From an uncultured Methanosarcinales archaeon (GTDB lineage Archaea > Nanobdellota > Nanobdellia > Woesearchaeales > GW2011-AR4), in contig CAZYSP010000003.1 in the NCBI GenBank assembly GCA_964650285.1, positions 6,364-70,363 of the forward strand: a DNA stretch of 64,000 bases, written 5' to 3'. Positions 21,228 through 59,181 of the stretch are shown one piece after another. A model generated the notes under the pieces. That model ran no database searches. It was given only the letters and a program-made list of their open reading frames with translations, and was not told the DNA's origin. Made by a program: the position numbers and the translations under genes. Numbering within the stretch: position 1 is the stretch's first letter; each line of letters begins with the position of its first letter.

Positions 21228-22070
21228 ATGGCTTCGGTACTACAAGACATGTGGAATGGGCTTTTAGACAAGGCTGCTGGTTATGCACCAAAACTTATAA
21301 CTGTGGCCATAATATTAATTATTGGATTTATAATCATAAGGATTTTGATTCACTTAATAGATAAATTCTTCAATAAGGTGAATTTTGATAGAAGTGTTGA
21401 GACCTTTCTTGAGAATGTAGCAAGAGTTATTTTATGGTCTATTCTGATAATAATTATATTGGCAAACTTAGGTGTTGATGTTACCGGCCTTATTGCAGGT
21501 CTTGGTATAATGGGATTTATTGTTGGTTTTGCACTTAAGGATACTTTAGGGAACTTGGCCTCTGGTGTATTTATTCTCTTCCATAAGCCCTTTAAAGTAG
21601 GAGACTGGATAAAAGTAGGTGGTATTGTAGGCGGTGTTGAAAGGATGGGCATTGCAGCCTGTGTTCTAAAGAGCCCAGATAATATTAAAATAACCATACC
21701 AAACAGCAAGATATGGGGGGATGTTATACAGAATTTCCATGGAAATCCAACAAGAAAATTGTTTAATCTAGAAATAGGTATAAGCTATGATTCCAACATA
21801 GACAAAGCAATCAAGATAATTACTGACATATTGAAAAAAGATGAAAGAGTTCTTAAGGATCCTGAACCACAAATTGTAGTTAAAAGCTTAAGAGATAGTT
21901 CTGTTAATATTGCTATAAGGCCTTCGATGAAAAAGGAAGACTATTGGAATGTTTATTTCGACACAATCAAGAATATCAAGGAAGAGTTTGACAAGAATGG
22001 GATAAGCATTCCATTCCCGCAAAGAGATGTCTGGATCAGGGAAATGTCAAAACGTCCTAAGAAAAAATGA
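21228..22070 (+). CDS. small-conductance mechanosensitive channel (MscS family)
   Basis: Transmembrane helices plus MscS beta-domain GDWIKVGGIVGGVERMGIAACVL. Confidence 0.8.
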   Translation: MASVLQDMWNGLLDKAAGYAPKLITVAIILIIGFIIIRILIHLIDKFFNKVNFDRSVETFLENVARVILWSILIIIILANLGVDVTGLIAGLGIMGFIVGFALKDTLGNLASGVFILFHKPFKVGDWIKVGGIVGGVERMGIAACVLKSPDNIKITIPNSKIWGDVIQNFHGNPTRKLFNLEIGISYDSNIDKAIKIITDILKKDERVLKDPEPQIVVKSLRDSSVNIAIRPSMKKEDYWNVYFDTIKNIKEEFDKNGISIPFPQRDVWIREMSKRPKKK

Positions 22071-24989: not shown

Positions 24990-25760
24990 TCAATGAAAAC
25001 TATGCTCATCTGCTGGAAACTTCCCTTCTTTCACGTCTTTGATATAATTTTCAAAAGCATTCTTCATTTCTTTTCCTAGCTCAGCATATTTTTTTACGAA
25101 TTTTGGGCTGAATTTGTCGTATAGGCCTAAAATGTCATTTGATACTAAAACCTGGCCATCACAATATGGACCAGCACCTATACCAATAGTTGGTATTGAA
25201 ATAATTTCTGTAATTCTTTTTGCAAGCTGCATTGGAACACACTCTAAAACAACACTGTAACAGCCTGCTTCTTCCAGTTGTTTTGCTAGCTTAAGCAATT
25301 TATTTGCAGTTTCTTCGTCCTTGCCTTGCACCTTAAAATCAGTAATAGTTTGTGGAGTCAACCCAATATGCCCCATAACTCCCATGCCATTATCAACTAA
25401 AAATTTTGCAATTTCCGGTTTATTCTCAATTTTTACATTATCTGCTCCTGCTTTGATAAATGCTTTTGCATTCAAAACAGCACTTTCATTGTCATTATAG
25501 CTATTAGCAGGCATATCGCCAACAATCATGGTATTTTTTGCGCCTCGTGCAACAGCTCCAGTATGCCTTAGCATATCATCCATAGTAACGCTTAATGTAT
25601 TCTCATAACCCAAAACAACCATTCCTAAGCTGTCTCCAATCAATATTATATCAACACCCACTTCATCCATGTACTTTGCAGTACTGCAATCATAAGCAGT
25701 AAGCATAGTTATTTTTTCCTTGCTCTTCATGGATTTTATTTTGTCAACTGTGGTTTTCAT
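24990..25760 (-). CDS. panB: 3-methyl-2-oxobutanoate hydroxymethyltransferase
   Basis: MLTAYD ... GIGAGP pattern. 256 aa. Confidence 0.85.
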   Translation of the reverse strand: MKTTVDKIKSMKSKEKITMLTAYDCSTAKYMDEVGVDIILIGDSLGMVVLGYENTLSVTMDDMLRHTGAVARGAKNTMIVGDMPANSYNDNESAVLNAKAFIKAGADNVKIENKPEIAKFLVDNGMGVMGHIGLTPQTITDFKVQGKDEETANKLLKLAKQLEEAGCYSVVLECVPMQLAKRITEIISIPTIGIGAGPYCDGQVLVSNDILGLYDKFSPKFVKKYAELGKEMKNAFENYIKDVKEGKFPADEHSFH

Positions 25761-25841
25761 AAGTTTATGTATACTATAATTGTTTATAAAGGTTCTTTTT
25801 TGTAAATAACAATCTTTTTAAATGTAATAACGGTATCTATT

Positions 25842-26852
25842 TTGTCTATGAAAGTCGCAGAATGGTTTGATAAAAACAGGTACAAAGCATCAAGTTTTTC
25901 AAACATAAAAAAACTGGTGGAATTGAAGAGAAAACAGAAAACTGCAATTAGTGTAGTTATTCCAACTCTTAACGAAGAATCAACCATTGGAAAGATAATA
26001 GAAGTTCTAAAAGAAAATTTAATGCAGAAATACAAGCTAGTGGATGAAATAGTTGTTATTGATTCTGGCAGCACTGACAAGACAAGAGACAACGCAAAAA
26101 AAGCAGGTGCAAACGTATATCTGGATTCTGAAATTCTAAAAAGAAAAGGAAATTACAAAGGCAAAGGTGAAAATTTATGGAAGTCCTTGTATGTAACAAA
26201 AGGTAATATAATATGCTGGATTGATGGTGATATAAAGAATATACATCCCAGATTTATTTACGGGCTTGTTGGGCCATTATTGACAAACAAGAATATTTAT
26301 TACACTAAAGCTTTTTATCAGAGAGTATCAAAAAAAGCCAATGGGACGACCCCTCTTGGAGGGGGAAGAACTACAGAACTGTGCTTTAGGCCTCTCATTA
26401 ATATGTTCTTTCCATTGCTAAGCGGCTTTATCCAGCCATTGAGTGGGGAATATGCTGGCAGGAGAAAACATCTGGAAAGACTTCCATTCTTCACTGGATA
26501 TGGTGTAGAAACAGGATTATTGATAGACATGCAAAAGAAATTTGGATTAAAAAGAGTTGCCCAGGTAGACCTTGTATCAAGGATACATAAGCACCAGAGT
26601 TTAAGAGGCCTAAGCAAACAGGCTTTTGCAGTTTTACAAGTAATATCAAAAAGAGCAAATACACTTGGGAAGTTCATACTTGTAAATGACATCAGGAGAA
26701 AAATAAAAATCATTGAAAGGGCCACTGAAGGCAAGAAAGTAGATTACAAACTTATTGATTCTCCGATTGAGCAAATACAAAGACCGCCAATAATTACATT
26801 AGAGGAATACAGAAAAAAATTCAAAAAAGAGCCTAAGTGGGTTTATGATTAA
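25842..26852 (+). CDS. GT2/GT81 glycosyltransferase, glucosyl-3-phosphoglycerate synthase-like
   Basis: ISVVIPTLNEESTIGKIIEVL ... VDEIVVIDSGSTDKT and a DGD (DxD) motif, resembling GpgS. Confidence 0.55.
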   Translation: MSMKVAEWFDKNRYKASSFSNIKKLVELKRKQKTAISVVIPTLNEESTIGKIIEVLKENLMQKYKLVDEIVVIDSGSTDKTRDNAKKAGANVYLDSEILKRKGNYKGKGENLWKSLYVTKGNIICWIDGDIKNIHPRFIYGLVGPLLTNKNIYYTKAFYQRVSKKANGTTPLGGGRTTELCFRPLINMFFPLLSGFIQPLSGEYAGRRKHLERLPFFTGYGVETGLLIDMQKKFGLKRVAQVDLVSRIHKHQSLRGLSKQAFAVLQVISKRANTLGKFILVNDIRRKIKIIERATEGKKVDYKLIDSPIEQIQRPPIITLEEYRKKFKKEPKWVYD

Positions 26853-26905
26853 TCTTTTATAAATTAAAGGAAAACTTAATAACATCTAAAACATTTATAT
26901 TCTTA

Positions 26906-28087
26906 ATGCTTATAAAAAACTATAAAAAATTGTCTAGGACTAACTTAAGAAGAAAAGCGCTTCAAATTATTAATTCTGGACTTTTAGCAATAAAAACAGA
27001 AAAAATAATAAAAAACAATATCAAATTAAAAGGTAATTCTCTGATAATAAAAAATAATAAATTCGATTTAAATAACTATAAAAGGATTTTTGTTATAGGT
27101 TTTGGAAAGGCCTCTTCTCTAATGGCAAAAGAACTAAAAAATATACTGAAAAACAGGATAAACAATGGACTAGTAATATCAACAAAGAAAATAAAGTTAA
27201 ATAAGATAAAAATCATAAAAGGAACTCATCCTCTTCCAACTGAAAAGAATATTTATGCCACAAAGAAAATGATAAACCTATTAAAAAGCCTGAATAAAGA
27301 TGATCTGGTGATTTCTCTTATTTCAGGAGGGGGTTCTGCTTTATTGTTTTATCCTAATATTAAATATTACAAATATATGGAAATATTCAACAAGGCATTC
27401 AAATCAGGAATTGGCATTTATGGATTAAATAAACTTAGGAAGAAATATTCTAATGTTAAAGGAGGCAAGCTGGCAAGACATACAAAAGCAAGAATAATTT
27501 CCTTGATATTCTCAGATGTTGTTGGTGATGATCTGGCTACTATTGCATCTGGACCAACATACGGGAAAGGGTTAAAGAATGTGGACAATATTCTGTTATT
27601 GAACAATGAAGTTGCTTTAGATGCCATGAAAAAGAAATCAGTTTTATTAGGACTAAAACCAATTATAGTTACAAATAAATTAAAAGGAGAAGCAAGATTG
27701 ATTAGGAAAAATCTGTTGAAATCAGTTAATAAGTATAAAAATAAGAATTGTTTTTTATTTGCAGGAGAAACAACAGTTACAGTTAAGGGTAATGGAAAAG
27801 GAGGAAGAAACCAGGAGTTGTGTTTAGGAGCTATAAAAGAGGTTGGGAAATTAAAAGATACTGTTATTGCTTTTGTAGGAACTGACGGCATAGACGGTCC
27901 AACAGATGCGGCAGGAGCGATAGTAGATAGTAACTCTTTAGAAAAAGCCCGAAAACTAGGATTAGATCCCACAGAATATTTAGATAAGAATGACTCTTAC
28001 AATTTCTTTAAAAGAATAAAAGATTTAGTTTTTACTGGAGCAACTGGTAGTAATGTGGCTGATATCGGGCTTATAGTTAAGAAATAA
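26906..28087 (+). CDS. glycerate kinase (MOFRL family)
   Basis: GTDGIDGPTDAAGAIVD signature and MOFRL N-terminus. Confidence 0.75.
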   Translation: MLIKNYKKLSRTNLRRKALQIINSGLLAIKTEKIIKNNIKLKGNSLIIKNNKFDLNNYKRIFVIGFGKASSLMAKELKNILKNRINNGLVISTKKIKLNKIKIIKGTHPLPTEKNIYATKKMINLLKSLNKDDLVISLISGGGSALLFYPNIKYYKYMEIFNKAFKSGIGIYGLNKLRKKYSNVKGGKLARHTKARIISLIFSDVVGDDLATIASGPTYGKGLKNVDNILLLNNEVALDAMKKKSVLLGLKPIIVTNKLKGEARLIRKNLLKSVNKYKNKNCFLFAGETTVTVKGNGKGGRNQELCLGAIKEVGKLKDTVIAFVGTDGIDGPTDAAGAIVDSNSLEKARKLGLDPTEYLDKNDSYNFFKRIKDLVFTGATGSNVADIGLIVKK

Positions 28088-28160
28088 CTTATTCTTTTAG
28101 TAAGTCTAAAAAAACAGCCATCTATATCTGTTGTGATTACAAGTTGCTCTAGCCTCATTT

Positions 28161-29210
28161 TTATTTATACACTTTGTCGTATATTGTGTTCGGGTCTATT
28201 AGCATTGGATTGTTCCTTAGAATGTGTTCAAGGTCTCCTGGCTTTTTAATAACACCTATACTCTGGCTGATGTTACCATTAACTTTATCAATCCTTGATT
28301 TGTATTTGCTGTCGTAAACAACAATTTTGCCATCAATAGGCCTTAGAACCAGTTCGGGCTCTTTTGAGATTTGGGGATCTCGCGCATTTGGCCAGTTAGA
28401 AGCATGACCATATCCAAAGAGTGGGCTTCTTCTTGCAAGCTGTTCTTCAATACCAAATATTTGCATCACTGCATTTTGGTTTTTTTCAACAGTCTTTGGC
28501 TCTAACCCTGCACCAACTATTACAAAATACAGAATCACTTCTGGTTTTTTTGGGTCTATTTTATATTCTTCCCTTAACTGCCAGTCTGCTTCTTTTAAGA
28601 CTTGGACTCTCTTATAAAGGCTTGATGCCTGCATTAATCTTACAAGAGGGTCTTCTTCATTTTCTACTCTTTGATAAAGGTCATTGCTATGCAATAATTC
28701 TTGTTCAGAAACTCCTGCTTCCTCTAGTATTGCAAGCTTTTTATCAGGGTCAATATCTGAAAGAGGGATGTAATGGTTAGCAGGTAAACTTAATCTTACA
28801 ATTTTTTCACCATCTTGATGTATTAATTGTCTCACAATATCTTTTGTTTTATCAACAACTTTACTAAAGGAACTATTTGTTTCATAATCTGGATTATCGC
28901 TATATGTAGGTGTAAAAGTACTACCATTTGTACATATTAAAACATCTTCAAATCCATTAAATTAAAAGGTAAATTCATTATTAAAGTCCGGATGAAGATA
29001 AGATTCCCCGCCACTAAACATGAGAGGCGCCCTTTTACTTCCTTTTAAGCCAGCAAATTCTTCTTTTAACAAGTGTAAGTCTAAAAATCCGGCAGTATTT
29101 CTCTCATTTGCAGCACTTTCTGAGCAGGGCCCGCACATCTTGTTACAGTAATCAGTAACAATAACTGTTATGGGGACCTGAATTTCAGTCTTATTTGTTG
29201 AATTTGTCAT
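28161..29210 (-). pseudogene. radical SAM protein interrupted by one in-frame TAA (28962-28964)
   Basis: Upstream part has CNKMCGPC (Cx3Cx2C) and FSGGESYLHPDF (GGE SAM motif). The frame continues in phase through the TAA into ...LICTNGS... and the 224-aa downstream ORF. Confidence 0.6.
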
Positions 29211-29289
29211 ATTATAGCTGTCTATGTAAAAATAGTATATACATCTTTCTGTTTTTACTACTATAAAGTGAATTATAATATTAATTTAA

Positions 29290-31002
29290 CTACTGAAGAC
29301 AATAAGCACCATATGGCTCAACTTGACCATTAAACTGTTTTTTAGAAATCAAATCAAATTTTTTTGTATATTTTGGCAAGGTTATTTTATCTTCACTAAC
29401 ATTAACAATGGCAATTATTTTTTTACCTTTGTATTTACGTTCGGTAATAAGCAATATTTTGTCTGATTTAACTGGTTTTTCCTTACAATAAGGGTCTAAT
29501 GCACTTATTCTTTTTCTGGCATTAAGAAGATGCAAATAGCTTGCCAGCACTTTATGCCTTATTGAATTTTTGTCTCTAATTTCTTGCTCTATTTTTTTAT
29601 AGTGTAATTTTCCCCTGTTAATTTCTCTATTGATGCCTGTTTTTTCAACGCCTCGCGAATAATTCCTAGAACCAAGCAAGCTGTGTATGTAAATTCCTGG
29701 AATTCCTTTGCTCAAAAGAATAATAACTTGGGAAGCCATAAATCTTTTAACTTTTTTTTCAATAGCTATTTTTTTGTTGGGATTATTAATCGCATCAAAA
29801 TAAGTTATATTTAGTTCATAAGGTGCTATCTTTCCATTCTTGGCTAATTTGTAAGATATAAGGCCATTATGTTTCTTTGTAGTAGCTAACAGACTGTTAA
29901 AATCTTTTGGAGAAATCATTCTCCTTGCACCCAAAATTCCTATACCATCATGCGAAGCTAAAAAATTGAAGAATAATGAATTCTTATTTAAAGCCCAAAA
30001 TATTTTATATGCTTTCTGTAAATAAGATGTGTCTTTCCTTGTAAATGCGTCAAAGACGAGGGGTGGCAACAGGAATTTATAGATCAACTGCGATTCGTCA
30101 TAGCCATTCCCAAAATAAGACATGTTTTCCTTAGGTGGTACATTAGTCTCGGTTATAATAATCGTATATGGTGCAACGTAATTTAGGACATCACGCATAA
30201 GCTTGACTATTTTATGAGTTTGCTTAAGATGAATGCATCTTGTCCCTAGTTCTTTCCATAAGTAAGCAATTGCGTCTAACCTGATTATTTCTACACCTTT
30301 TGAAACATAGAACAATAATATATCAATCATATCTATTAGTACATCAGGATTCTTATAATTAAGATCAATCTGATCGTTACTAAATGTTGTCCATATGTAT
30401 TTTGTTCCATTTTTAGTTTTGAATTTAGTCAATAAAGGATTTGTCCTAGGCCTGAACACAGAAGAAGTGTCTACTCTTTTATCAAAATTAATAAAATAAT
30501 TTTTGTATTTTTCATCTCCTTTCAGAAAACCCTTAAACCACTTAGATTCTCTAGAGATATGATTTACAACAAGGTCGACCATCAAACGGTAATCTTTGCA
30601 TATCCTTACAACATCCTCCCAATCTCCAAGCTTTGAGTTTACCTTCTTGTAATCAATGACTGAGAAGCCATCATCAGAGCTATAATAGAAAAATGGCAGT
30701 ATATGGACTCCTGATATGGATTTTTTAACATACTTCTTTAGGAATTTATGGAGAGTTTTTAATGGCTTTTCTCCTTCTTGCCTTATTGTGTCACCATATG
30801 TAATAAGAATAACATCTTTGTTTGTTAGTGAAATTTTACTATTGTATTTTTTCCTTTTAGCACGGACAATATTATTTTTTCTGTAATAATCCATTGTAGA
30901 TTTTAACTTTAGAATAATTTTATCAGTGTCTTTGTTTGGATAAAGGTATGCTATTTTCTTCCGTATCTTAGCCAGATTCTTTCTATCACTTGATTTTCCC
31001 AT
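29290..31002 (-). CDS. GH13 sucrose phosphorylase-family enzyme (possible glucosylglycerate phosphorylase)
   Basis: HILPFF..SDDGFSV, LMVDLVVNHIS and IRLDAIAYLWK blocks typical of sucrose phosphorylase. Confidence 0.75.
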   Translation of the reverse strand: MGKSSDRKNLAKIRKKIAYLYPNKDTDKIILKLKSTMDYYRKNNIVRAKRKKYNSKISLTNKDVILITYGDTIRQEGEKPLKTLHKFLKKYVKKSISGVHILPFFYYSSDDGFSVIDYKKVNSKLGDWEDVVRICKDYRLMVDLVVNHISRESKWFKGFLKGDEKYKNYFINFDKRVDTSSVFRPRTNPLLTKFKTKNGTKYIWTTFSNDQIDLNYKNPDVLIDMIDILLFYVSKGVEIIRLDAIAYLWKELGTRCIHLKQTHKIVKLMRDVLNYVAPYTIIITETNVPPKENMSYFGNGYDESQLIYKFLLPPLVFDAFTRKDTSYLQKAYKIFWALNKNSLFFNFLASHDGIGILGARRMISPKDFNSLLATTKKHNGLISYKLAKNGKIAPYELNITYFDAINNPNKKIAIEKKVKRFMASQVIILLSKGIPGIYIHSLLGSRNYSRGVEKTGINREINRGKLHYKKIEQEIRDKNSIRHKVLASYLHLLNARKRISALDPYCKEKPVKSDKILLITERKYKGKKIIAIVNVSEDKITLPKYTKKFDLISKKQFNGQVEPYGAYCLQ

Positions 31003-31093
31003 ATTATGAATCCAGATTGGGTATTTTATTAAGGTTTCTATAAAATCCCATAAAACTAAAGATTTATATAATACTTTATTTCTGGGAATACAA

Positions 31094-32461
31094 ATGAAAA
31101 TAAAAAAAATAGAGGTTTTCTCAACTCACGAGCCTTACAAAAGGCCTATTCCAATTGCAGTGGGAACGCATGACAATAGGAATAATATATTGGTTAAAAT
31201 AACTGCAGACAATAGTTTATCTGGATGGGGAGAAGGATCTCCTTTAATTCCTTCTTACTCTGGTGAAGTTAGGGACCAAATGGTTGATGATATTGTAAAA
31301 AGAATAGCTCCGGACATTCTTGAGCAAAAAATAACAACTGTAGATGACATCTTGGTATTAATTCAACATATTAGACACAATAAATACTATTTTCAATGCG
31401 CTATAGCTGCAGTTGATATCGCATTATTTGACCTTTTGGGCAAACAAAAGAAAAAACCAGTTTATGAACTTATTAGAGATTATTTAAGGCTGAAAAAATT
31501 CAATAAACTTCCGGAACTGCCTGCCAACTTTACAGTGAGTCGCAATGCAACTAGAACTGATGACAAGATTGATGAAATGATTAAAGAAGCAGATTATTAT
31601 GTTAGCCAAGGCTATTCTGTTATCAAGATTAAGATTGGTATCTTTAAAAACTCGGATGAGCGTGCAGTCAAGAAACTCTATCAGTATATGAAAAAGAATC
31701 ACCCTAACCATACTGTCAACCTGTTTGTAGATGGCAATCAAGCTTATTCAACAGTCCAAGAAGCACTTACTATTATCAATAAAATAAAGCCTTATATTGA
31801 CGGTCTGGAACAGCCATTCCACCGCAATATTCCTTATCTATCGGCGTCACTATACAAGAAGTTTAAATCAATGAAAGATGCTCCATTTTTGATTACTGAT
31901 GAAGGAAGCTCTTCTATTGAAGAAATGGAAAATGTCATGATTTCACATGCTGCTGCGGGTTCCTTGCTGAAAATGGTACGAAGTGGCGGTTTTAGCTTTG
32001 TGATTTGGCTTTCTAATCTGCTGCGCAAATATCCTAAATTCAAGCTAGAGCCCATGTCAATGACCGAGACAGGTATAGGTACTACTGCTAACTTGCACTC
32101 TGCTTTAGTTATTTATGAACATTGCAACTTAAACTCAGGCTTTGGCTTTGATGGTCCTATGCAGGTCATTGGAGACAGCTATAAAACAGGAAAAGACACA
32201 ATAATTTATAAGAATAAAAAAACTGGATTGATTATTAAAAATAAAAAAGGAGTTGCTATTTATGATGCAGAACAAATAATAGGGGATGGAGAAGGATTAG
32301 GTATTAATATTAACCAGAAATACATTGATAAGATTACTAAAGTGAGAATAGTTATTTGGCTAGAAAATAGTAATGTATTTAAAGAGGAAATAGTAGGAAA
32401 AGTAAATAAAAAAGAGATTATTGGAAAGCAGAAAACTATATTAAAGCACCCTAGATATTAA
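31094..32461 (+). CDS. enolase-superfamily (MR/MLE-type) enzyme with C-terminal extension
   Basis: KIKIG (KxK), FVDGNQAY (DxN) and EQPF metal-ligand pattern. Confidence 0.6.
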   Translation: MKIKKIEVFSTHEPYKRPIPIAVGTHDNRNNILVKITADNSLSGWGEGSPLIPSYSGEVRDQMVDDIVKRIAPDILEQKITTVDDILVLIQHIRHNKYYFQCAIAAVDIALFDLLGKQKKKPVYELIRDYLRLKKFNKLPELPANFTVSRNATRTDDKIDEMIKEADYYVSQGYSVIKIKIGIFKNSDERAVKKLYQYMKKNHPNHTVNLFVDGNQAYSTVQEALTIINKIKPYIDGLEQPFHRNIPYLSASLYKKFKSMKDAPFLITDEGSSSIEEMENVMISHAAAGSLLKMVRSGGFSFVIWLSNLLRKYPKFKLEPMSMTETGIGTTANLHSALVIYEHCNLNSGFGFDGPMQVIGDSYKTGKDTIIYKNKKTGLIIKNKKGVAIYDAEQIIGDGEGLGININQKYIDKITKVRIVIWLENSNVFKEEIVGKVNKKEIIGKQKTILKHPRY

Positions 32462-32491
32462 TTATTAAATAAAGTTTTGTAAGTATTTAAG

Positions 32492-34342
32492 ATGAAAACT
32501 ATAAAACCAAAAGCTGATTTTCTTATAGAAGTTTTACATGAAGTTGCTAATCCTATTGGTGGAGTTTATACTGTTGCTACAACCAGTTCAGGGGAAATGA
32601 GAAGATATTATGGAGAAAATTTTTATGTAGTTGGAGCATATTATCCAAAATTTGCTAAAGTTGAATTTGACGAAGAAATACCGCCACCGGAAATAAAAAA
32701 AATTTTTGAAGAATTAGAAAAAGAAAAAATAACTTGCTACTATGGTAGATGGCTAATCACCGGAAAGCCAAAAACAATTTTGGTTGATTATTCAAAATGG
32801 ATGAAAAAATTGAAAAAAATAAAGAAAGAAGTAACGAAGAAATATGGAATAGATTGTAGCAGATGCGGTCCTAATCTTAACAGACAAATAGTTTGGTCAT
32901 ATTGCCTAGTTAAGTTATTTGATAAATTATTAAGTCTTTCAGGATTTCAAAATAAAAAAGGAATTGCCCATTTTCATTTATCTGATCCAGGTTTATTACT
33001 TCTAGAACTTGCTGCTAAAAACACTAAGTTAGGGATAGTTTATACAGCACACTCTACAAGACTTGGTAGGTTCATAGCAATGAATAGTGAAGATCTAGTT
33101 ACTGAAATAAAAGAAGGCATTAAACATAAAAAAACTGTCAGAAAAGGTAGGGAGTATAAATATGGTGGTATAAGAGTAACTGTACACCAGTTTGAAAAGG
33201 CATGTGCAAAAGCAGCAGATGTGTTTACTAGTGTAAGTGAAACTACGGCTAGAGAAGCAGAGTACATATTAGGAAAAAAAACAGATGTTATAACACCTAA
33301 TGGGTTGGAATTCGAAAGATTTGTTTCTTTAGAAGAAAGAGCAATAAAACACAATAACTCCAAAGAAAGAATTTATAGATTTTTGAATGCATATTTTTTA
33401 CCATATTATCATGTAGACATACCACATTCCCTCCTATTCTTTACATCTGGAAGATACGAGCTTACCACAAAAGGTTATGATATTTTATTTAAAGTATTGG
33501 GTAAATTAAACAGCATATTAAAAAAAGAAAGGTATGAAAATAATATCTTTGTTTTTTTATTTATAATGACGGATTTAAAATCGAGTAATGAGGATATCTT
33601 AAATAATTTAAGCATATATGATACAATTGAGCATACTACGCAAGAAGAACTGCCTAATATAGAAAAAAGAATTATCGCAAATTTAATTCATGGTCATGAA
33701 ATAGCTAAAGAAAAAATATTCGATGAGCATTTTTTAATGGAGACCAAAAAGCTAATGCTGAAATTTATGAGAAAAGAAGATGAAACACCCCCTATCTCTG
33801 CATTTAAAGGTTTAAAAAAGGACGACATTATAATGAAGCTTTTGTTAAAAAGTGGGTTGGATAATAAAAAGGAGGACATAGTAAAGGTAATATTTTATCC
33901 GGCGCCAGTTTCAATTGCTGATGGTTTATTGTCCATGGAATACCATGAAGTTGTGAGTGGCATGCATCTCGGGATTTTTCCTTCTATATATGAACCATGG
34001 GGTTATACACCTCTGGAAACTGCAGCTCAGGCTGTTATGTCTATTACATCAGATGTTTCCGGATTCGGTAAATTTGTTATGAAAAACAGTAATCAAAGAA
34101 AAAAACCAGGAATTTTAGTGTTAAAGACAGAGAACAAAAAAAGAGAAGAAATAGTGGATGAGTTAACTGATATGATGTATTGGATTGCAAAGTTGCCTAG
34201 AAAACAAAGAATAGAAAAGAAATTACAAGCAAGAAAACTTTCAACCTTGGCAGATTGGGGAGAATTCTCAAAATATTATATCCAAGCACATAATTTGGCA
34301 ATAGAAAGAGCTGCTAAAAGACAAAAATCTAAAAAAAGATAA
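32492..34342 (+). CDS. GT3-family glycogen synthase-like glycosyltransferase
   Basis: N-terminal EVLHEVANPIGGVYTV...GENFYVVGAYYP parallels GT3 glycogen synthase (EVAWEVANKVGGIYTV...GDNYFLVGPY). Confidence 0.6.
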   Translation: MKTIKPKADFLIEVLHEVANPIGGVYTVATTSSGEMRRYYGENFYVVGAYYPKFAKVEFDEEIPPPEIKKIFEELEKEKITCYYGRWLITGKPKTILVDYSKWMKKLKKIKKEVTKKYGIDCSRCGPNLNRQIVWSYCLVKLFDKLLSLSGFQNKKGIAHFHLSDPGLLLLELAAKNTKLGIVYTAHSTRLGRFIAMNSEDLVTEIKEGIKHKKTVRKGREYKYGGIRVTVHQFEKACAKAADVFTSVSETTAREAEYILGKKTDVITPNGLEFERFVSLEERAIKHNNSKERIYRFLNAYFLPYYHVDIPHSLLFFTSGRYELTTKGYDILFKVLGKLNSILKKERYENNIFVFLFIMTDLKSSNEDILNNLSIYDTIEHTTQEELPNIEKRIIANLIHGHEIAKEKIFDEHFLMETKKLMLKFMRKEDETPPISAFKGLKKDDIIMKLLLKSGLDNKKEDIVKVIFYPAPVSIADGLLSMEYHEVVSGMHLGIFPSIYEPWGYTPLETAAQAVMSITSDVSGFGKFVMKNSNQRKKPGILVLKTENKKREEIVDELTDMMYWIAKLPRKQRIEKKLQARKLSTLADWGEFSKYYIQAHNLAIERAAKRQKSKKR

Positions 34343-34411
34343 TTTTTAATATTCATATTTAATGTTCCTGTTGGTCTCTTAAAATATTTAAATAAAAATG
34401 AATAATGCTTT

Positions 34412-35197
34412 TTGATGAAATCGATAATTTTTACAGATTTGGATGGAACTTTACTGGATCAATATAATTATTCTTATAAAAAAGCTATAAAAGCATTAAA
34501 CCTAATTAGGAAAAAAGATATTCCTTTGGTATTTTGTACTAGCAAAACAAGAGCAGAGATAGAATTTTATAGAAAAAAACTTAGTAATAAGCATCCTTTT
34601 ATTTCTGAAAATGGCGGTGCTATTTTCATTCCGAATAATTATTTTAATTTTAAAGTCGATTATGATAAAAAAGATAAAGATTATTTTATTATAGAATTGG
34701 GAACAGACTACGATAAACTAATATCTGTAATTAAAAAAATTAAAAATAACATTAATATTAGAAATTTCGGCAGCATGAGCGCTAAAGAAGTCTCAAAAAT
34801 TACAAATCTGCCTATAAGAAATGCTGAGCTGGCAAAAAAAAGATATTATGATGAACCTTTTATTTTAGTTGATAAAGAAAAAGATTTGGTGAAGATAGTA
34901 AGAAAAAATAACTTGAGCTATACAAAAGGAACAAGATTTTATCATTTAATGGGTGAGAGTGACAAAGGAAAAGCAGTAAGGATTTTAACAAATTTTTTTA
35001 AGAAGAAATATGGTAAAATAGTAACCTATGGTTTTGGAGATTCAAAAAATGATTTTGAGATGCTTGATAGCGTTGATAAAGGTTACTTGGTGATGAAAAA
35101 AGACAAAAAGTACGCTTCAAAAAAATATAAAAAAGCATATGGAATTGGTCCGATAGGATGGAGTAAGGTTGTTAAAGAAGTAATCCTAAATAATTGA
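34412..35197 (+). CDS. HAD-IIB phosphatase, mannosyl/glucosyl-3-phosphoglycerate phosphatase-like
   Basis: IIFTDLDGTLLD motif I, ~260 aa. Confidence 0.7.
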   Translation: MMKSIIFTDLDGTLLDQYNYSYKKAIKALNLIRKKDIPLVFCTSKTRAEIEFYRKKLSNKHPFISENGGAIFIPNNYFNFKVDYDKKDKDYFIIELGTDYDKLISVIKKIKNNINIRNFGSMSAKEVSKITNLPIRNAELAKKRYYDEPFILVDKEKDLVKIVRKNNLSYTKGTRFYHLMGESDKGKAVRILTNFFKKKYGKIVTYGFGDSKNDFEMLDSVDKGYLVMKKDKKYASKKYKKAYGIGPIGWSKVVKEVILNN

Positions 35198-35252
35198 CCC
35201 AATTAAATTTATCATTGAAATCAGAGGAATAGTATTTTTTTCTGGAATCGTT

Positions 35253-36194
35253 TCATAGACCCCTATAAAACCTAGCAGCATCTTCAGGCGTTACTGAATT
35301 TATTATTGCTCCTGTCGAAAGTTCAAATCCCCCCCATTTTGCAAGCCTGGGAGTTATTTCTATATGGAAATGCAAGTCGTGACCTTGTGGGGCGTAATGC
35401 AGGAAAAAATTATGTGACACGTTCAATTTCTTTAATTTTACAAGTATTTTTTTAAGCGCTGATGCCATATCGTACAATTCATGGTCATACATAGCTGTTA
35501 TACTCTTAACATGCCTCTTAGGGAATATCCATGCTTCAAAATTAAATCTGGACGCAAAGGGTGCAAAGGCAACTGTACTTTTGTTTGCTACTATCTTCCT
35601 TTTACTTTTTGATTCTAATCTTATTATATTACAATGTGGGCACCTTCTAAATTTCTTTGCTGCTTTAATTTCATTCATTACATCTTTTGGCAGAATAGGC
35701 AGAGCAGCTACTTGTGTATGGGAATGTATTAAAGATGTACCAGCGGAAGAGCCTTGATTCCTGAAAACAGTAACGTATTTTATATCCTTTAATTTTGATA
35801 GTGCTTTTATTCTTGATACGTATACATCAAAAATCTCTTTTATATGTTCTATGCTCAAATCTGAGAGTTGTTTTTTATGGTCTCTTGTTTCCGCTATTAT
35901 TTCATGCATGCCATAGGTCTTTCCTTCTTTGAGAAACTTATTTTTTGTTTTTATTCCAACATTTTCTTTTAATTCCACAACAGGAAATTTGTTTGGGAAC
36001 CATCTTACCCTCCAAGTGTTTTTTTCTTTAACGCGGCCTATTTCTGGCGGTGTCAAATGCTCATTTTCAGGGCAGAAAAAGCATGTTTTTGTGTTAACAG
36101 TATGATCTTCCTTAAACTCCCTAGGCCTTTTTTTTCTTTCAGTAGCGTAATAAACCCACCTGTCAAGAATATAGTCTTTCCTTAGTATTCCCAT
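35253..36194 (-). CDS. GalT-like HIT-superfamily nucleotidyltransferase/phosphorylase
   Basis: CFFCPENE zinc motif and HSHTQ (HxHxQ) active site. Confidence 0.7.
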   Translation of the reverse strand: MGILRKDYILDRWVYYATERKKRPREFKEDHTVNTKTCFFCPENEHLTPPEIGRVKEKNTWRVRWFPNKFPVVELKENVGIKTKNKFLKEGKTYGMHEIIAETRDHKKQLSDLSIEHIKEIFDVYVSRIKALSKLKDIKYVTVFRNQGSSAGTSLIHSHTQVAALPILPKDVMNEIKAAKKFRRCPHCNIIRLESKSKRKIVANKSTVAFAPFASRFNFEAWIFPKRHVKSITAMYDHELYDMASALKKILVKLKKLNVSHNFFLHYAPQGHDLHFHIEITPRLAKWGGFELSTGAIINSVTPEDAARFYRGL

Positions 36195-36331
36195 ATTAAA
36201 ATATCCTCAAAAACAAGCTATTTAAACTTTTTGAATTTATCCTTTGCTTAGTTCCCTCCTTTTTTGCCATTATAAAATTTTATAGAATTATCCATTTATA
36301 TACTTTTTTGTACTGCATTTAATTATTACAA

Positions 36332-36979
36332 CTATTTTAGAATATCCGGCAACTCGGCTTCTTCAAACTCTATAACATCTTTCCTTGTGTTTACTGTTTT
36401 CCAAAAGCCTTCGTGCTTATAAACTCTTAATTTAATTTTTGGAAAAACATCAAATTCCAGCATCCCTTTATCCGGCAGATAGTTTAGTATTTCTTCCCGG
36501 TTAAAAAGGTACCAACCGCAGCTAACCCAGTCATCAAGCAATGGCCTTTCCTCAAAAATCGCATATCCATCTTTTTCATGAATTCTTCCAAATTGCAACA
36601 CTGGGTGCGCTACACAAATTTTATTTTCCTTTTTTTCCTGTAATTTTAATAGGTCTATATCAACAAGGTCATCACAGTTTAAAACTACTACATAATCTGA
36701 TTCTGATTTTTGCAATGCTAATTTTAAACCTCCAGCAGTTCCTAAAAGTTTTTCTTCAATGGTGTAGTCAAGGGGAGCTGACGGATAATTCAATTTGACA
36801 TATTTAATCACTTCATCAGCTTTATAGCCCAAGGCCAGAATTATTTTCTTTATCCCAGACTTTAGCAAGTAATCAATCTGGCGGGCTACAATTGGTTTTC
36901 CTTTTACAATTGTTAATGCCTTCGGAAAATCACCTTCCATCCTGTTTCCCTTTCCACCAGCTATAATGACTGCGTCCAT
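36332..36979 (-). CDS. sugar-1-phosphate nucleotidyltransferase
   Basis: MDAVIIAGGKGNRM N-terminal signature. Confidence 0.75.
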   Translation of the reverse strand: MDAVIIAGGKGNRMEGDFPKALTIVKGKPIVARQIDYLLKSGIKKIILALGYKADEVIKYVKLNYPSAPLDYTIEEKLLGTAGGLKLALQKSESDYVVVLNCDDLVDIDLLKLQEKKENKICVAHPVLQFGRIHEKDGYAIFEERPLLDDWVSCGWYLFNREEILNYLPDKGMLEFDVFPKIKLRVYKHEGFWKTVNTRKDVIEFEEAELPDILK

Positions 36980-37000
36980 ATTAGGAAGTGATTTAGGAGT

Positions 37001-38038
37001 TTATTTAAATGTTTTTAGTTGTTTTTTATTTATTGTCCCTGCAACAAGCAAGGGAAATATCAATGTAGCATCTGCAACTACCTTAACGCGCTGTGCGTTT
37101 GGCTTTATCTTTGCCCAGCTTATTGCTTCTTCCTGGTTGCCTCCGGAATCAGAGCCGTCATACTCGTTAGCAGTAGTTATGTAAATAGAGTATTCGAAGC
37201 CCTCCCTGAATATTGCTGAATTTAATAAGAAATGTTTTGCAATTCCTCCACCTAAAACTATGCATCCTGCTTTGTCTGTGTTCTGCAGCATTTTTGTAAG
37301 CGTAAAATTATCTTTTGTGACATCTATTGCAAATTTTGGATTTTTTCTTTTAAAGAAAGTCGTTAAATCTCCCATTGCGCCATCTGTAATGCCCGGGCAA
37401 AAAACAGGGATGTTGTTTTTTGCAGCCCAATATACAAACGACTGCTCGTGAGCTTTCTTTGTCAGTTTATGCTTTTTTACATATTTTCCCATTTCTCTTA
37501 CGACTTCATAAGTACCTGGGATCCCTTTGAATTCTTTCATTAGCTTCTTAAAAAAATCATTAAAGAACCTTTCAAAATATAGATATCGGTCCATTGGAGC
37601 CAGAATATTGCCTATTCTGCCTATTGACTCATCTAATAAAAATTTTCCCTTTATATCAAAAGTACCTAAGTGGAATGGCTTTATGCATTTGATTATGTCT
37701 TCTTCTAATGAAGCAGCAGTTGTTGTTATGCCGTCAACAAGCTTGTTTTTTACTAAATAAGCTATAATTTCCCTGTTGCCAGAGCTTATCATATTTCCTG
37801 TAAAAGATATCCATATTGCAAGCTTGTTTTTCTTTTTTTCCTCAAGCATTTTTGACAGAATATTGAAAGCTGCACCAAGGTTAGAACCCTGGAAGCCCAT
37901 ATGAGTATAATTTTCTATGAATTTATTGAAGTCAAAAGGCTCTTCAAAATTATGGCCTTGTATCTCAGGAAACCTGTCCATAGACAGATAATTCTTCAAA
38001 TTCCCTTTCCATTTCCTGTTTTTGACATATATTGACAT
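37001..38038 (-). CDS. dys: deoxyhypusine synthase
   Basis: FTGNMISSGNREII...GITTTAASLEEDIIKC and GGGIAKHF blocks collinear with DHS. Confidence 0.75.
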   Translation of the reverse strand: MSIYVKNRKWKGNLKNYLSMDRFPEIQGHNFEEPFDFNKFIENYTHMGFQGSNLGAAFNILSKMLEEKKKNKLAIWISFTGNMISSGNREIIAYLVKNKLVDGITTTAASLEEDIIKCIKPFHLGTFDIKGKFLLDESIGRIGNILAPMDRYLYFERFFNDFFKKLMKEFKGIPGTYEVVREMGKYVKKHKLTKKAHEQSFVYWAAKNNIPVFCPGITDGAMGDLTTFFKRKNPKFAIDVTKDNFTLTKMLQNTDKAGCIVLGGGIAKHFLLNSAIFREGFEYSIYITTANEYDGSDSGGNQEEAISWAKIKPNAQRVKVVADATLIFPLLVAGTINKKQLKTFK

Positions 38039-59097: not shown

Positions 59098-59181
59098 TGC
59101 GGCAGCCGAGATTCGAACTCGGGTCCCAGCCTTTTTACAATGTTTGGCAAGGCCGGATCTTAACCACTGGACTACTGCCGC
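59098..59181 (-). tRNA. tRNA-Gly(GCC) with 12-nt canonical intron
   Basis: GCGGCAG-TA-GTCC-AGTGGTTA-AGAT-C-CGGCC-TTGCCA[12 nt]A-GGCTG-GGAC-CCGAG-TTCGAAT-CTCGG-CTGCCGC-A. Confidence 0.7.

What the first reader, a model, noticed from the sequence alone, without database searches (positions are those of the whole stretch)
25842..36979. Sugar and compatible-solute island in a reduced archaeal genome
Ten consecutive genes cover two capacities. The first is synthesis and phosphorolysis of a glycoside of glycerate: GpgS-like GT81, MOFRL glycerate kinase, MPGP/GpgP-like HAD phosphatase and a GH13 sucrose-phosphorylase-family enzyme, the family that includes glucosylglycerate phosphorylase. The second is alpha-glucan formation from a nucleotide sugar: GT3 glycogen-synthase-like protein, sugar-1-P nucleotidyltransferase and a GalT-like HIT enzyme. 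An enolase-superfamily enzyme and a disrupted radical SAM gene are also present. Presence of both GpgS/GpgP and the phosphorylase implies a glucosylglycerate cycle. A GT3 (eukaryote-type) glycogen synthase is uncommon in archaea.
Basis: partly seen in the sequence, partly recalled or inferred. Interest (0 to 1): 0.55.

Follow-up and report, generated by a model that had tools for sequence, protein, structure and literature searches.

The report
Archaeal glucosylglycerate and glucan gene island
A small marine archaeon carries, side by side, the genes to make, break down and recycle the salt-protecting sugar glucosylglycerate. They sit next to a eukaryote-type glycogen synthase that keeps company with these genes in several related lineages, so the two functions are probably linked.

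Summary
- GpgS is above the NCBIfam equivalog cutoff.
- The GH13 is a glucosylglycerate phosphorylase: 42% identical to E. coli YcjM, with both signature motifs.
- The rest are a MOFRL glycerate kinase, an MPGP-type phosphatase, a full-length GT3, a GalT-like HIT enzyme closest to ADP-glucose phosphorylase, an MLE-subgroup enolase-superfamily enzyme, and a radical SAM gene with one in-frame TAA.

A glucosylglycerate cycle clustered like this is already known in bacteria, and GT3 is the usual glycogen-synthase type in DPANN archaea. Those parts are ordinary.

Three things are new:
1. This GT3 belongs to a subclade that sits beside GpgS and GpgP in 5 of 8 lineages. One case is a single GT3-GpgS-GpgP-GT3 operon. 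None of 80 other-clade GT3 loci show this.
2. GT3 followed by the GalT-like gene is a recurrent pair elsewhere.
3. The 455-aa enolase-superfamily family and the very rare radical SAM family both travel with glycosylglycerate genes in other archaeal phyla.

The island fills a variable slot between conserved flanks. Activities are inferred, not shown.

The parts
25842..26852 (+). Glucosyl-3-phosphoglycerate synthase (GpgS, GT81). The likely true start is the ATG at 25848, giving 334 aa.
   Evidence: NF010496 equivalog at 358 bits, cutoff 262. Best PDB matches are R. xylanophilus MpgS/GpgS 3f1y (220 bits) and mycobacterial GpgS (about 190 bits). The DxD motif reads 'IDGDI'. Relatives were called at 334 aa.
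26906..28087 (+). MOFRL-family glycerate kinase, 54 bp downstream of GpgS on the same strand.
   Evidence: DUF4147 196 bits plus MOFRL 135 bits. Archaeal glycerate 2-kinase equivalog models are the top hits but fall below their cutoffs (234 against 670). PDB matches are PH0495 1x3l (221 bits) and the TM1585 glycerate kinase 2b8n.
28161..29210 (-). Radical SAM pseudogene of 349 codons, with one in-frame TAA at 28962-28964. It lies downstream of the phosphorylase on the same strand.
   Evidence: Translation gives CNKMCGPC followed by a single stop. Intact relatives P0177 and P0179 have a sense codon there, and L007 has Tyr. The L007 copy is frameshifted about 12 codons further on. The sister strain has deleted window 28310-29246.
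29290..31002 (-). Glucosylglycerate phosphorylase (GGaP clade of GH13_18).
   Evidence: 42% identity, 423 bits, E 9e-147 to E. coli YcjM over 478 residues. It has the RLDA nucleophile, the 'IITETNVP' (T/S)ETN motif and 'APYELN' with Glu in loop A. The motif definitions come from PMC7178133.
31094..32461 (+). Enolase-superfamily enzyme of the MLE subgroup, from a new 450-464 aa family of unknown substrate. It is the first gene of the MR_MLE-GT3-phosphatase operon.
   Evidence: MR_MLE_N and MR_MLE_C. K178-x-K180, D213, E239, D269 and K293 are invariant in the family alignment. The AF2 model has pLDDT 91. The best PDB folds are N-succinyl amino acid racemase, dipeptide epimerases, MLE and OSBS, at 24% identity or less. 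The family is rare, and it sits with MOFRL, HAD and a GpgS-like GT in Altiarchaeales and Hydrothermarchaeota contigs.
32492..34342 (+). GT3 glycogen-synthase-family glycosyltransferase, member of a subclade linked to GpgS/GpgP.
   Evidence: PF05693 at 385 bits over the full length. Human GYS1 scores 298 bits over residues 10-608. R321, K327 and E501-x7-E509 are conserved across the subclade. Subclade membership comes from the NJ tree.
34412..35197 (+). Glucosyl-/mannosyl-3-phosphoglycerate phosphatase (HAD-IIB, MPGP family).
   Evidence: TIGR01486 at 214 bits (cutoff 165) and TIGR02461 at 246 bits (cutoff 244). P. horikoshii MPGP 1wzc scores 154 bits.
35253..36194 (-). Class I GalT-like HIT enzyme, probably an NDP-glucose phosphorylase or transferase.
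   Evidence: The best PDB match is A. thaliana At5g18200 (1z84) at 174 bits, against 63 bits for E. coli GalT. It has CxxC and the 'HSHTQ' HxHxQ motif. TIGR00209 scores 111 bits (cutoff 102). A homologue sits 5-31 bp downstream of GT3 on the same strand in 8 other-clade loci.
36332..36979 (-). Sugar-1-phosphate nucleotidyltransferase of 215 aa, part of the conserved flank together with deoxyhypusine synthase.
   Evidence: NTP_transferase and NTP_transf_3. The closest solved relatives are GDP-heptose HddC-type 6jq8 (80 bits) and Man-1-P guanylyltransferases. It is present beside DS in L002/L003, which lack the glucosylglycerate genes, and absent in L005.
24990..25760 (-). Left conserved flank: ketopantoate hydroxymethyltransferase (panB).
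   Evidence: PF02548 at 346 bits. The same flank order, MscS-S7-S12-CoaBC-panB, occurs in L002 and L008.
37001..38038 (-). Right conserved flank: deoxyhypusine synthase.
   Evidence: PF01916 at 334 bits. It is 85-86% identical in L002 and L005 at the same position.

Best explanation
The island encodes one linked system that moves glucose units between the anionic compatible solute glucosylglycerate (GG) and a GT3-made alpha-glucan, by way of the shared intermediates glucose-1-phosphate and NDP-glucose.

Synthesis: GpgS transfers glucose from NDP-glucose to 3-phosphoglycerate, and the MPGP-type phosphatase then releases GG.

Breakdown: the GH13_18 phosphorylase splits GG with phosphate into alpha-glucose-1-phosphate and D-glycerate. 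The MOFRL kinase returns the glycerate to the phosphoglycerate pool.

Re-activation and storage: glucose-1-phosphate is re-activated by the flanking nucleotidyltransferase, by the GalT-like HIT enzyme (NDP + Glc1P <-> NDP-Glc + Pi), or by both. It is then used again by GpgS or polymerised by GT3.

Shown here: family membership, intact catalytic motifs, operon layout and recurrent co-location.

Inferred: all activities, the nucleotide carried by the donor, the direction of the HIT reaction, and the roles of the enolase-superfamily enzyme and the decaying radical SAM gene. The enolase-superfamily enzyme is predicted to abstract the alpha-proton of a glycerate-derived carboxylate.
For: - GpgS is above its equivalog cutoff.
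- The GH13 is 42% identical to the characterised GGaP YcjM and has both clade signatures.
- The phosphatase is above the MPGP-family cutoffs.
- MOFRL is confirmed.
- GT3 is full length with its catalytic residues.
- The GalT-like protein is closest to ADP-glucose phosphorylase and has an intact HxHxQ motif.
- In bacteria, GGaP genes are known to sit with glycerate kinase, GpgS and GpgP (PMC7178133).
- The cluster is retained at about 80% and about 99% identity.
- GpgS plus GpgP sit beside this GT3 subclade in 5 of 8 lineages and in 0 of 80 other GT3 loci. One lineage, L097, has a GT3-GpgS-GpgP-GT3 operon.
- The GT3->GalT-like pair recurs in other-clade loci.
Against: - No enzyme was assayed.
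- The window contains no phosphoglucomutase, phosphoglycerate mutase, branching enzyme or glucan-degrading enzyme, so the glucan branch cannot be shown to be complete.
- The glycerate kinase falls below the equivalog cutoffs, so its product (2-PG or 3-PG) is unknown.
- A relative with identical flanks (L002) keeps GT3 but has none of the GG genes, so GT3 can function without them.
- Co-transcription of synthesis genes with GT3 fits a sequential pathway at least as well as it fits two alternative sinks.
- The lineage counts are not phylogenetically independent.
Confidence: 0.6

Rival explanations
1. GG-primed glucan. The GT3 of this subclade uses glucosylglycerate (or glucosyl-3-phosphoglycerate) as its acceptor. 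It extends it to di- or oligo-glucosylglycerate, or to a glucan with glycerate at the reducing end. This would be an archaeal counterpart of the way mycobacteria start methylglucose lipopolysaccharide, and it would replace the missing glycogenin.
For: - GT3, GpgS and GpgP are co-transcribed. In the window the order is MR_MLE-GT3-phosphatase on one strand. In L097, GT3-GpgS-GpgP-GT3 are spaced by 63, -8 and 10 bp.
- The association is specific to one GT3 subclade: 5 of 8 lineages against 0 of 80 loci.
- L007 and L097 also carry a second GT3 from another clade. In L007 that copy lies near GH15 and GDE_C, which fits a division of labour.
- The review literature states that the primer for archaeal GT3 is unknown and that no glycogenin has been found (PMC11046441).
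Against: - No biochemical evidence exists.
- L002, L006/L012 and L098 carry subclade GT3 without a nearby GpgS.
- The linkage could reflect inherited gene order within one archaeal lineage.
- The presence of GGaP and glycerate kinase points to free GG turnover rather than to a committed primer.
Confidence: 0.2
2. Two independent capacities that are merely neighbours: a GG cycle and an ordinary glycogen synthase. They would be kept together by ancestry or loosely by a shared precursor, with no direct functional coupling.
For: - GT3 persists in the same slot in L002 without any GG gene.
- GT3 with a GalT-like partner is a self-contained pair in many other loci.
- All the linked lineages belong to one GT3 subclade, so shared ancestry is a possible confounder.
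Against: - Gene order around GT3 is extensively rearranged among the window, L004, L007 and L097, yet GpgS and GpgP stay adjacent.
- The operon arrangement in L097 is very tight.
- The contrast with other clades is 0 of 80.
Confidence: 0.15
3. The solute is mannosylglycerate, or a mixture, rather than glucosylglycerate. The GT81 enzyme would use GDP-mannose, like the dual-specificity Rubrobacter enzyme.
For: - The best solved relative of the GT is R. xylanophilus 'mannosyl-3-phosphoglycerate synthase' 3f1y, at 220 bits against about 190 for mycobacterial GpgS.
- The phosphatase is closest to P. horikoshii MPGP.
- The flanking nucleotidyltransferase is closest to GDP-sugar enzymes.
- Some related clusters carry MGS_GT-like GTs.
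Against: - The GpgS equivalog model is passed, and no MpgS model scores.
- The degrading enzyme belongs to the GGaP clade, described as strict for glucosylglycerate (PMC7178133 and PMC11009771).
- GT3 and the HIT enzyme are both glucose-centred.
- The nucleotidyltransferase is a flank gene, not an island gene.
Confidence: 0.1
4. Scavenging. The phosphorylase and glycerate kinase mainly consume GG released by marine picocyanobacteria or a host, rather than turning over a pool the cell made itself.
For: - The sequences come from marine (Tara) samples.
- GG is a common solute of marine cyanobacteria from nitrogen-poor waters (cited in PMC11009771).
- GGaP occurs in organisms not known to make GG (PMC7178133).
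Against: - Intact GpgS and GpgP are present in the same island.
- No transporter gene lies within the island.
Confidence: 0.1

Closest known systems
Bacterial glucosylglycerate phosphorylase loci (Meiothermus silvanus, Spirochaeta thermophila, E. coli YcjM; Franceus et al. 2017 as summarised in PMC7178133)
   Same: A GH13_18 enzyme with the (T/S)ETN motif and the loop-A Glu, 42% identical to YcjM, co-located with glycerate kinase, GpgS and GpgP.
   Different: The host is archaeal, probably DPANN. The locus also carries a GT3 glycogen-synthase homologue, a GalT-like HIT enzyme, a new enolase-superfamily family and a radical SAM remnant. None of these is part of the described bacterial loci.
Archaeal two-step GG synthesis (GpgS/GpgP of Methanococcoides burtonii; recalled from the literature, and named as a GG producer in PMC11009771)
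   Same: A two-step route through glucosyl-3-phosphoglycerate, using an MPGP-family HAD phosphatase.
   Different: The window's GpgS matches the actinobacterial-type model NF010496 (358 bits). It does not match the methanogen-type model NF040724 (49.5 bits, cutoff 700). A phosphorolytic return path is also present.
Putative GT3 glycogen synthases of DPANN and Euryarchaeota (PMC11046441)
   Same: A full-length GT3 with conserved catalytic residues, and homologues across DPANN and CPR.
   Different: It belongs to a distinct subclade of 605-645 aa that shares at least 47% identity with the window protein. Only this subclade is linked to GpgS/GpgP. No archaeal GT3 has been characterised, and its primer is unknown.
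Mycobacterial methylglucose lipopolysaccharide initiation (GpgS, GpgP, then glucosyl extension; from general knowledge)
   Same: GpgS and GpgP are encoded with alpha-glucosyltransferases. This offers a precedent for GG as the reducing-end primer of an alpha-glucan.
   Different: The extending enzymes in mycobacteria are not GT3. No methyltransferase or acyltransferase genes are present here. The analogy was not tested.
Arabidopsis At5g18200 ADP-glucose phosphorylase (PDB 1z84/2h39)
   Same: It is the best solved relative of the GalT-like protein (174 bits), with the HxHxQ motif and zinc-site cysteines.
   Different: The nucleotide preference and physiological direction are unknown here. In prokaryotes the gene is paired with GT3. 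The review searched here does not mention this pairing.

Membership tests
GT81 glucosyl-3-phosphoglycerate synthase | Scores above the curated equivalog model cutoff | tested here: met
   NF010496 at 358.3 bits against a cutoff of 262, covering model positions 2-306 of 307.
GT81 glucosyl-3-phosphoglycerate synthase | GT-A DxD motif and closest solved relatives in GT81 | tested here: met
   The motif reads 'IDGDI'. The top PDB hits are all GT81 MpgS/GpgS enzymes.
GT81 glucosyl-3-phosphoglycerate synthase | Transfers glucose (not mannose) from an NDP-sugar to 3-phosphoglycerate | not testable with these tools
   The best PDB hit is the dual-specificity Rubrobacter enzyme, so the donor is unresolved.
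GH13_18 glucosylglycerate phosphorylase (GGaP) | (T/S)ETN motif at the catalytic acid/base | tested here: met
   'IITETNVP' is identical to YcjM. The motif definition is from PMC7178133.
GH13_18 glucosylglycerate phosphorylase (GGaP) | Glu in place of Gln in loop A | tested here: met
   'APYELN' aligns with YcjM 'SPYEIN' and with sucrose phosphorylase 'IYQ'.
GH13_18 glucosylglycerate phosphorylase (GGaP) | Closer to a characterised GGaP than to sucrose, glucosylglycerol or sucrose-6F-P phosphorylases | tested here: met
   423 bits to YcjM, against 134-155 bits to the solved SP, GGoP and SPP structures. The two scores come from different programs (BLASTP and phmmer).
GH13_18 glucosylglycerate phosphorylase (GGaP) | Phosphorolysis of 2-O-alpha-glucosylglycerate | not testable with these tools
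   Needs an enzyme assay.
MOFRL (class II) glycerate kinase | DUF4147 plus MOFRL domain pair | tested here: met
   196 and 135 bits. PDB relatives are PH0495 and the TM1585 glycerate kinase.
MOFRL (class II) glycerate kinase | Scores above the glycerate 2-kinase equivalog cutoffs | tested here: not met
   NF040791 at 234 bits (cutoff 670) and NF041176 at 215 bits (cutoff 550). Membership holds at family level only, and the product is not assignable.
GT3 glycogen synthase | Full-length match to the GT3 profile and to solved eukaryotic enzymes | tested here: met
   PF05693 at 385 bits over residues 13-608. Human GYS1 scores 298 bits and yeast Gsy2 263 bits.
GT3 glycogen synthase | Conserved catalytic Arg/Lys and the E-x7-E motif | tested here: met
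   R321, K327, E501 and E509 are invariant in the 34-sequence subclade alignment. Their correspondence to yeast residues is from memory.
GT3 glycogen synthase | Elongates alpha-1,4-glucan from a glycogenin-type primer | not testable with these tools
   No archaeal GT3 has been characterised (PMC11046441). No Pfam hit of the 30 flanking window ORFs scanned is a GT8/glycogenin-type domain, and the genome beyond the window was not seen.
HAD-IIB MPGP/GpgP phosphatase | Scores above the MPGP family and equivalog cutoffs | tested here: met
   TIGR01486 at 213.6 bits (cutoff 164.75). TIGR02461 at 246 bits (cutoff 244.35), which is marginal.
Class I GalT / ADP-glucose phosphorylase branch of the HIT superfamily | HxHxQ motif with the nucleophilic His, and zinc-site CxxC | tested here: met
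   'HSHTQ' aligns with E. coli 'HPHGQ', and 'CFFC' is present. TIGR00209 scores 110.9 bits (cutoff 102.1).
Class I GalT / ADP-glucose phosphorylase branch of the HIT superfamily | Phosphorylase versus hexose-1-P transferase chemistry, and nucleotide preference | not testable with these tools
   There is only relative similarity: 174 bits to At5g18200 against 63 bits to E. coli GalT.
Enolase superfamily, MLE subgroup | KxK, three carboxylate metal ligands and a second Lys base | tested here: met
   K178, K180, D213, E239, D269 and K293 are invariant. The fold matches MLE-subgroup structures with TM-score normalised to target length 0.80-0.90 (TMt).
Enolase superfamily, MLE subgroup | Membership of a characterised function family (OSBS, MLE, dipeptide epimerase, NSAR, acid-sugar dehydratases) | tested here: not met
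   All NCBIfam hits are far below their cutoffs; the best is 72 bits against 335. Identity to solved structures is 24% or less. There is a sharp gap from 52% to 34% identity to the nearest outgroup.
Radical SAM | CxxxCxxC cluster motif and an intact reading frame | tested here: not met
   The motif 'CNKMCGPC' is present, but the frame is interrupted by TAA at codon 83. The gene is deleted in the sister strain.

The most novel reading that the evidence does not exclude
The GT3 subclade found here is not an ordinary glycogen synthase. It is a glucosylglycerate-primed glucosyltransferase. GpgS and GpgP make the primer, and GT3 extends it to diglucosylglycerate or to a glycerate-capped alpha-glucan; in some lineages a second GT3 would elongate further. 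The GalT-like HIT enzyme would supply NDP-glucose from glucose-1-phosphate and NDP without spending NTP. The new enolase-superfamily enzyme would modify the glycerate end. This would answer how glycogenin-less DPANN archaea prime a eukaryote-type synthase.
Probability: 0.2. Interest if true: 0.75.

Novelty: new variant of a known kind. Interest (0 to 1): 0.5.

Why it matters
Clusters for glucosylglycerate synthesis and phosphorolysis are known in bacteria, and GT3 synthases are known by sequence in DPANN archaea. The core of the finding therefore extends known biology to an uncultured marine archaeon.

The added value lies in three leads that can be tested directly.

1. A specific GT3 subclade is physically tied to GpgS and GpgP. 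This gives a concrete candidate (GG) for the unknown primer or partner of archaeal GT3, a question recent review literature lists as open.
2. A conserved GT3 plus GalT-like pair suggests an NTP-free route to the sugar donor in energy-limited, small-genome organisms.
3. Two uncharacterised families are now placed in glycosylglycerate metabolism by genomic context across archaeal phyla: a 455-aa MLE-subgroup enolase-superfamily enzyme and a very rare radical SAM protein.

The island also shows how related strains swap the contents of one chromosomal slot.

Tried and rejected
- **Genome-collection scan with the GT3 protein.** It returned only one locus, at 39% identity, so the organism could not be named from a reference genome. 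The only taxonomic hints are named homologues (Woesearchaeota at 62% identity) and archaeal markers.
- **Metagenome scan with the subclade alignment.** I used these as a control set rather than as subclade contexts.
- **Stop-codon recoding for the radical SAM TAA.** Rejected. Relatives have Tyr or His at that position, the L007 copy is broken elsewhere, and the sister strain has deleted the gene.
- **Recent foreign origin of the island.** No GC or skew anomaly is visible.
- **'Ordinary amylase' for the GH13, and 'generic GT2' for the GT.** Both rejected.
- **Search of the window for phosphoglucomutase, branching enzyme, GH15, GH57 and GT35.** No hit to any of these among the 30 flanking ORFs scanned, which covered most but not all ORFs of the window.
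- **The primary GGaP paper (PMC5601347).** Not held; two reviews were used instead.
- **Literature search for any link between enolase-superfamily enzymes and glucosyl- or mannosylglycerate.** None of the 15 top-ranked papers listed contained either glycoside term.
- **Assigning a substrate to the enolase-superfamily enzyme by fold search.** This gave only subgroup-level matches.

Full report
**What is there.** Window 25842-36979 contains ten ORFs that make nine genes. They fall into four transcription units:
- GpgS -> glycerate kinase on the + strand, 54 bp apart.
- GH13 phosphorylase -> radical SAM on the - strand, 79 bp apart.
- Enolase-superfamily enzyme -> GT3 -> HAD phosphatase on the + strand, 30 and 69 bp apart. 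This unit diverges from the GH13 gene across 91 bp.
- GalT-like <- nucleotidyltransferase <- deoxyhypusine synthase on the - strand.

GC content is even across the window. The surrounding genes are archaeal housekeeping genes: SMC, RNase HII, Nre, archaeal-type pilus ATPase and membrane proteins, S7/S12, deoxyhypusine synthase and AlaRS. There is also an intron-bearing tRNA. The exact proteins occur in marine (Tara) assemblies. One NCBI MAG carrying them is labelled Flavobacteriales, which the gene content contradicts. The nearest named homologues of the GT3 come from Woesearchaeota and other DPANN archaea.

**Family checks.**
- GpgS passes the NCBIfam equivalog NF010496 (358 bits against 262). 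Its nearest solved relatives are the GT81 enzymes of Rubrobacter and mycobacteria, and it has a DxD motif.
- The GH13 scores below the sucrose phosphorylase cutoff. It is 42% identical (E 9e-147) over 478 residues to E. coli YcjM, annotated in RefSeq as glucosylglycerate phosphorylase.
- The GH13 also carries the two signatures that separate GGaP from the other GH13_18 specificities. These are (T/S)ETN at the acid/base, here 'IITETNVP', and Glu instead of Gln in loop A, here 'APYELN'.
- The kinase has the DUF4147 plus MOFRL pair. It resembles PH0495 and TM1585 but falls below the glycerate 2-kinase equivalog cutoffs.
- The phosphatase passes the MPGP family models and is closest to P. horikoshii MPGP.
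- The GT3 matches PF05693 end to end and human GYS1 at 298 bits, with conserved catalytic residues.
- The GalT-like protein keeps its CxxC and HxHxQ motifs. It is much closer to Arabidopsis ADP-glucose phosphorylase (174 bits) than to E. coli GalT (63 bits).
- The nucleotidyltransferase is a generic 215-aa enzyme, nearest to GDP-sugar-forming enzymes.

**The radical SAM gene is decaying.** It is one 349-codon frame with a single TAA.
- Intact relatives P0177 and P0179 have a sense codon there, and L007 has Tyr.
- The L007 copy is broken by a frameshift about 12 codons further on.
- The 99%-identical sister strain has deleted window 28310-29246.
- The 81% relative L005 has no room for the gene between the kinase gene fragment and the phosphorylase gene, which lie 34 bp apart (the fragment is identified as MOFRL).
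- The family is extremely rare. A word-index search of 5.8 billion proteins gave two hits, and a full HMMER scan of 1.84 billion representatives with the C-terminal part gave five.
- The intact copy P0177 lies directly downstream of a glucosylglycerate-hydrolase-like gene, next to an MPGP-like gene and a MOFRL gene. So this gene travels with the GG-degrading enzyme in both cases, but it is dispensable in the window's lineage.

**The island is a variable slot.** Relative L002/L003 (deoxyhypusine synthase 85% identical) has the same flanks: MscS-S7-S12-CoaBC-panB on one side, and nucleotidyltransferase-DS-TatD-...-metallophosphoesterase on the other. Between them it carries different genes: MgtC, two other GTs, a second nucleotidyltransferase, GT3, then GCS2, PALP, GNAT and two ATP-grasp genes. 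It has no GG gene. L005 (DS 86%) keeps kinase-GGaP-MR_MLE-GT3-phosphatase-GalT but lacks the nucleotidyltransferase. GT3 is therefore the stable element of the slot, the GG genes come and go, and the nucleotidyltransferase belongs to the flank.

**GT3 is not rare here, but this subclade is special.** A recent review states three things: within Archaea, GT3 is confined to DPANN and Euryarchaeota; no archaeal GT3 has been characterised; and the primer question is open. One search returned 166 homologues at E <= 1e-20, named from Woesearchaeota, Micrarchaeota, Aenigmatarchaeota, Nanoarchaeota, Altiarchaeota and CPR bacteria.

An NJ tree places the window protein in a subclade of 605-645 aa that shares at least 47% identity with it. 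I examined eight lineages of that subclade.
- Five have a GpgS-like GT and an MPGP-like HAD next to GT3: window/L008, L005, L004, L007 and L097. In L005 the contig ends before the position where GpgS lies in the window, so only the phosphatase and the rest of the cluster are seen there.
- The clearest case is L097, where GT3, GpgS (64% identical to the window's), GpgP and a second GT3 form one tightly spaced operon.
- None of 80 loci from other GT3 clades has any of these genes within 10 kb. Fisher's p is 1.4e-6, or 8.5e-5 when only loci of at least 15 kb are counted. The lineages are not phylogenetically independent, so these p-values overstate the case.

**GT3 and the GalT-like gene form a pair.** A GalT-like homologue lies within 5 kb of GT3 in 12 of the 80 other-clade loci. 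In eight of them it is 5-31 bp downstream on the same strand. It is also near GT3 in the window and in L005, L006/L012, L007 and L098. This supports a role in making or recycling the NDP-glucose that GT3 uses. Running an ADP-glucose-phosphorylase-type reaction backwards would activate glucose-1-phosphate with NDP rather than NTP. That is my inference, not a result.

**The enolase-superfamily enzyme.**
- Its family has about 17 clusters in 5.8 billion proteins, at 52-86% identity. There is then a gap to 34% identity with shorter relatives.
- All MLE-subgroup catalytic residues are invariant.
- The AlphaFold model is confident (pLDDT 91). It matches racemases, epimerases, MLE and OSBS at 24% identity or less.
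- Outside the GT3-bearing lineages, it sits with MOFRL, an MPGP-like HAD and GpgS-like GTs in an Altiarchaeales contig and a Hydrothermarchaeota contig.
- One copy lies in a bacterial-looking contig next to a transposase.

Its context therefore ties it to glycosylglycerate metabolism rather than to GT3. The chemistry of the subgroup predicts alpha-proton abstraction from a carboxylate. Glycerate, GG and phosphoglycerates all have such a proton at C2. The actual reaction is unknown, and none of the 15 top-ranked papers from the literature search connects this superfamily with these solutes.

**How it most likely works.** GpgS and the phosphatase make GG from NDP-glucose and 3-phosphoglycerate. 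GGaP returns GG to glucose-1-phosphate and glycerate without losing the bond energy. The kinase re-phosphorylates glycerate. The nucleotidyltransferase and/or the HIT enzyme re-form NDP-glucose, and GT3 uses the same donor for a glucan. This gives a reversible shuttle between an osmotically active anion and an inactive polymer. It fits a marine organism and the reported turnover of such solutes into storage polymers (PMC11009771).

The main rival is that GT3 extends GG itself, so that GG acts as a primer. I give this about 0.2. It explains the co-transcription and the subclade specificity better, but it has no direct support. Less likely readings are mere adjacency, mannosylglycerate as the solute, and scavenging of external GG.

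**Verdict.** The statement about GT3 rarity does not hold for this kind of archaeon. The core is a new archaeal variant of a known system, and it comes with several testable leads. Interest 0.5.

Noticed in passing
L002:5900-17900 (ENA k119_1009973), the slot equivalent to window 25800-36300: A relative with identical flanks fills the same slot with a different gene set: MgtC, a 499-aa GT2, a GT4, a 263-aa nucleotidyltransferase, GT3, then GCS2, PALP, GNAT, CP_ATPgrasp and RimK. This may be an alternative small-molecule or peptide solute pathway.
   Followed up: partly
L034, L035, L038, L039, L044, L048, L062, L086 (GT3 end to GalT-like start, 5-31 bp): GT3 followed on the same strand by a GalT-like HIT gene recurs as a two-gene unit in metagenome loci whose GT3 belongs to other clades. 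The glucan-metabolism review searched here does not mention this pairing.
   Followed up: partly
L097:10001-15427 (NCBI CAZNZT010000001.1): A single operon encodes GT3 (616 aa), GpgS, an MPGP-like phosphatase and a second GT3 (570 aa, a different clade). L007 likewise has two GT3 paralogues, one of them near GH15 and GDE_C genes.
   Followed up: partly
L095:49-3718 (JGI Ga0434945_025104): The only intact close homologue of the radical SAM gene lies directly after a glucosylglycerate-hydrolase-like gene. It is followed by an MPGP-like gene split into 188-aa and 81-aa ORFs, with a MOFRL gene on the other strand.
   Followed up: partly
L093:8303-11368 (JGI SMTZ1_10003041): A 70%-identical copy of the 455-aa enolase-superfamily enzyme lies next to a DDE transposase. 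The contig carries bacterial-type genes (RF-1, L31, GGDEF) and no glycosylglycerate genes, which suggests horizontal transfer.
   Followed up: no
window 59098-59181 (-): Rfam finds a second tRNA that ARAGORN misses. By eye the sequence looks like tRNA-Gly(GCC) with a short intron after the anticodon loop, an archaeal trait.
   Followed up: partly
window 32492-38038 (proteins MDP7244830-MDP7244834): NCBI holds identical proteins in a MAG labelled 'Flavobacteriales bacterium'. The contig encodes deoxyhypusine synthase, Nre and other archaeal genes, so it is probably mis-binned.
   Followed up: no
window 9927-11336 (+), 52496-53926 (+), 53957-55768 (-): Three large ORFs (469, 476 and 603 aa) have no Pfam match at E <= 1e-5.
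   Followed up: no
window 21228-22070 (+) and 40900-42615 (-): An MscS mechanosensitive channel and a Na+/H+ exchanger with a TrkA-N domain lie a few kb either side of the island. They are part of the flanks also seen in the sister strain L008 (MscS also in L002), so they are not island cargo. Their osmotic theme is suggestive only.
   Followed up: partly
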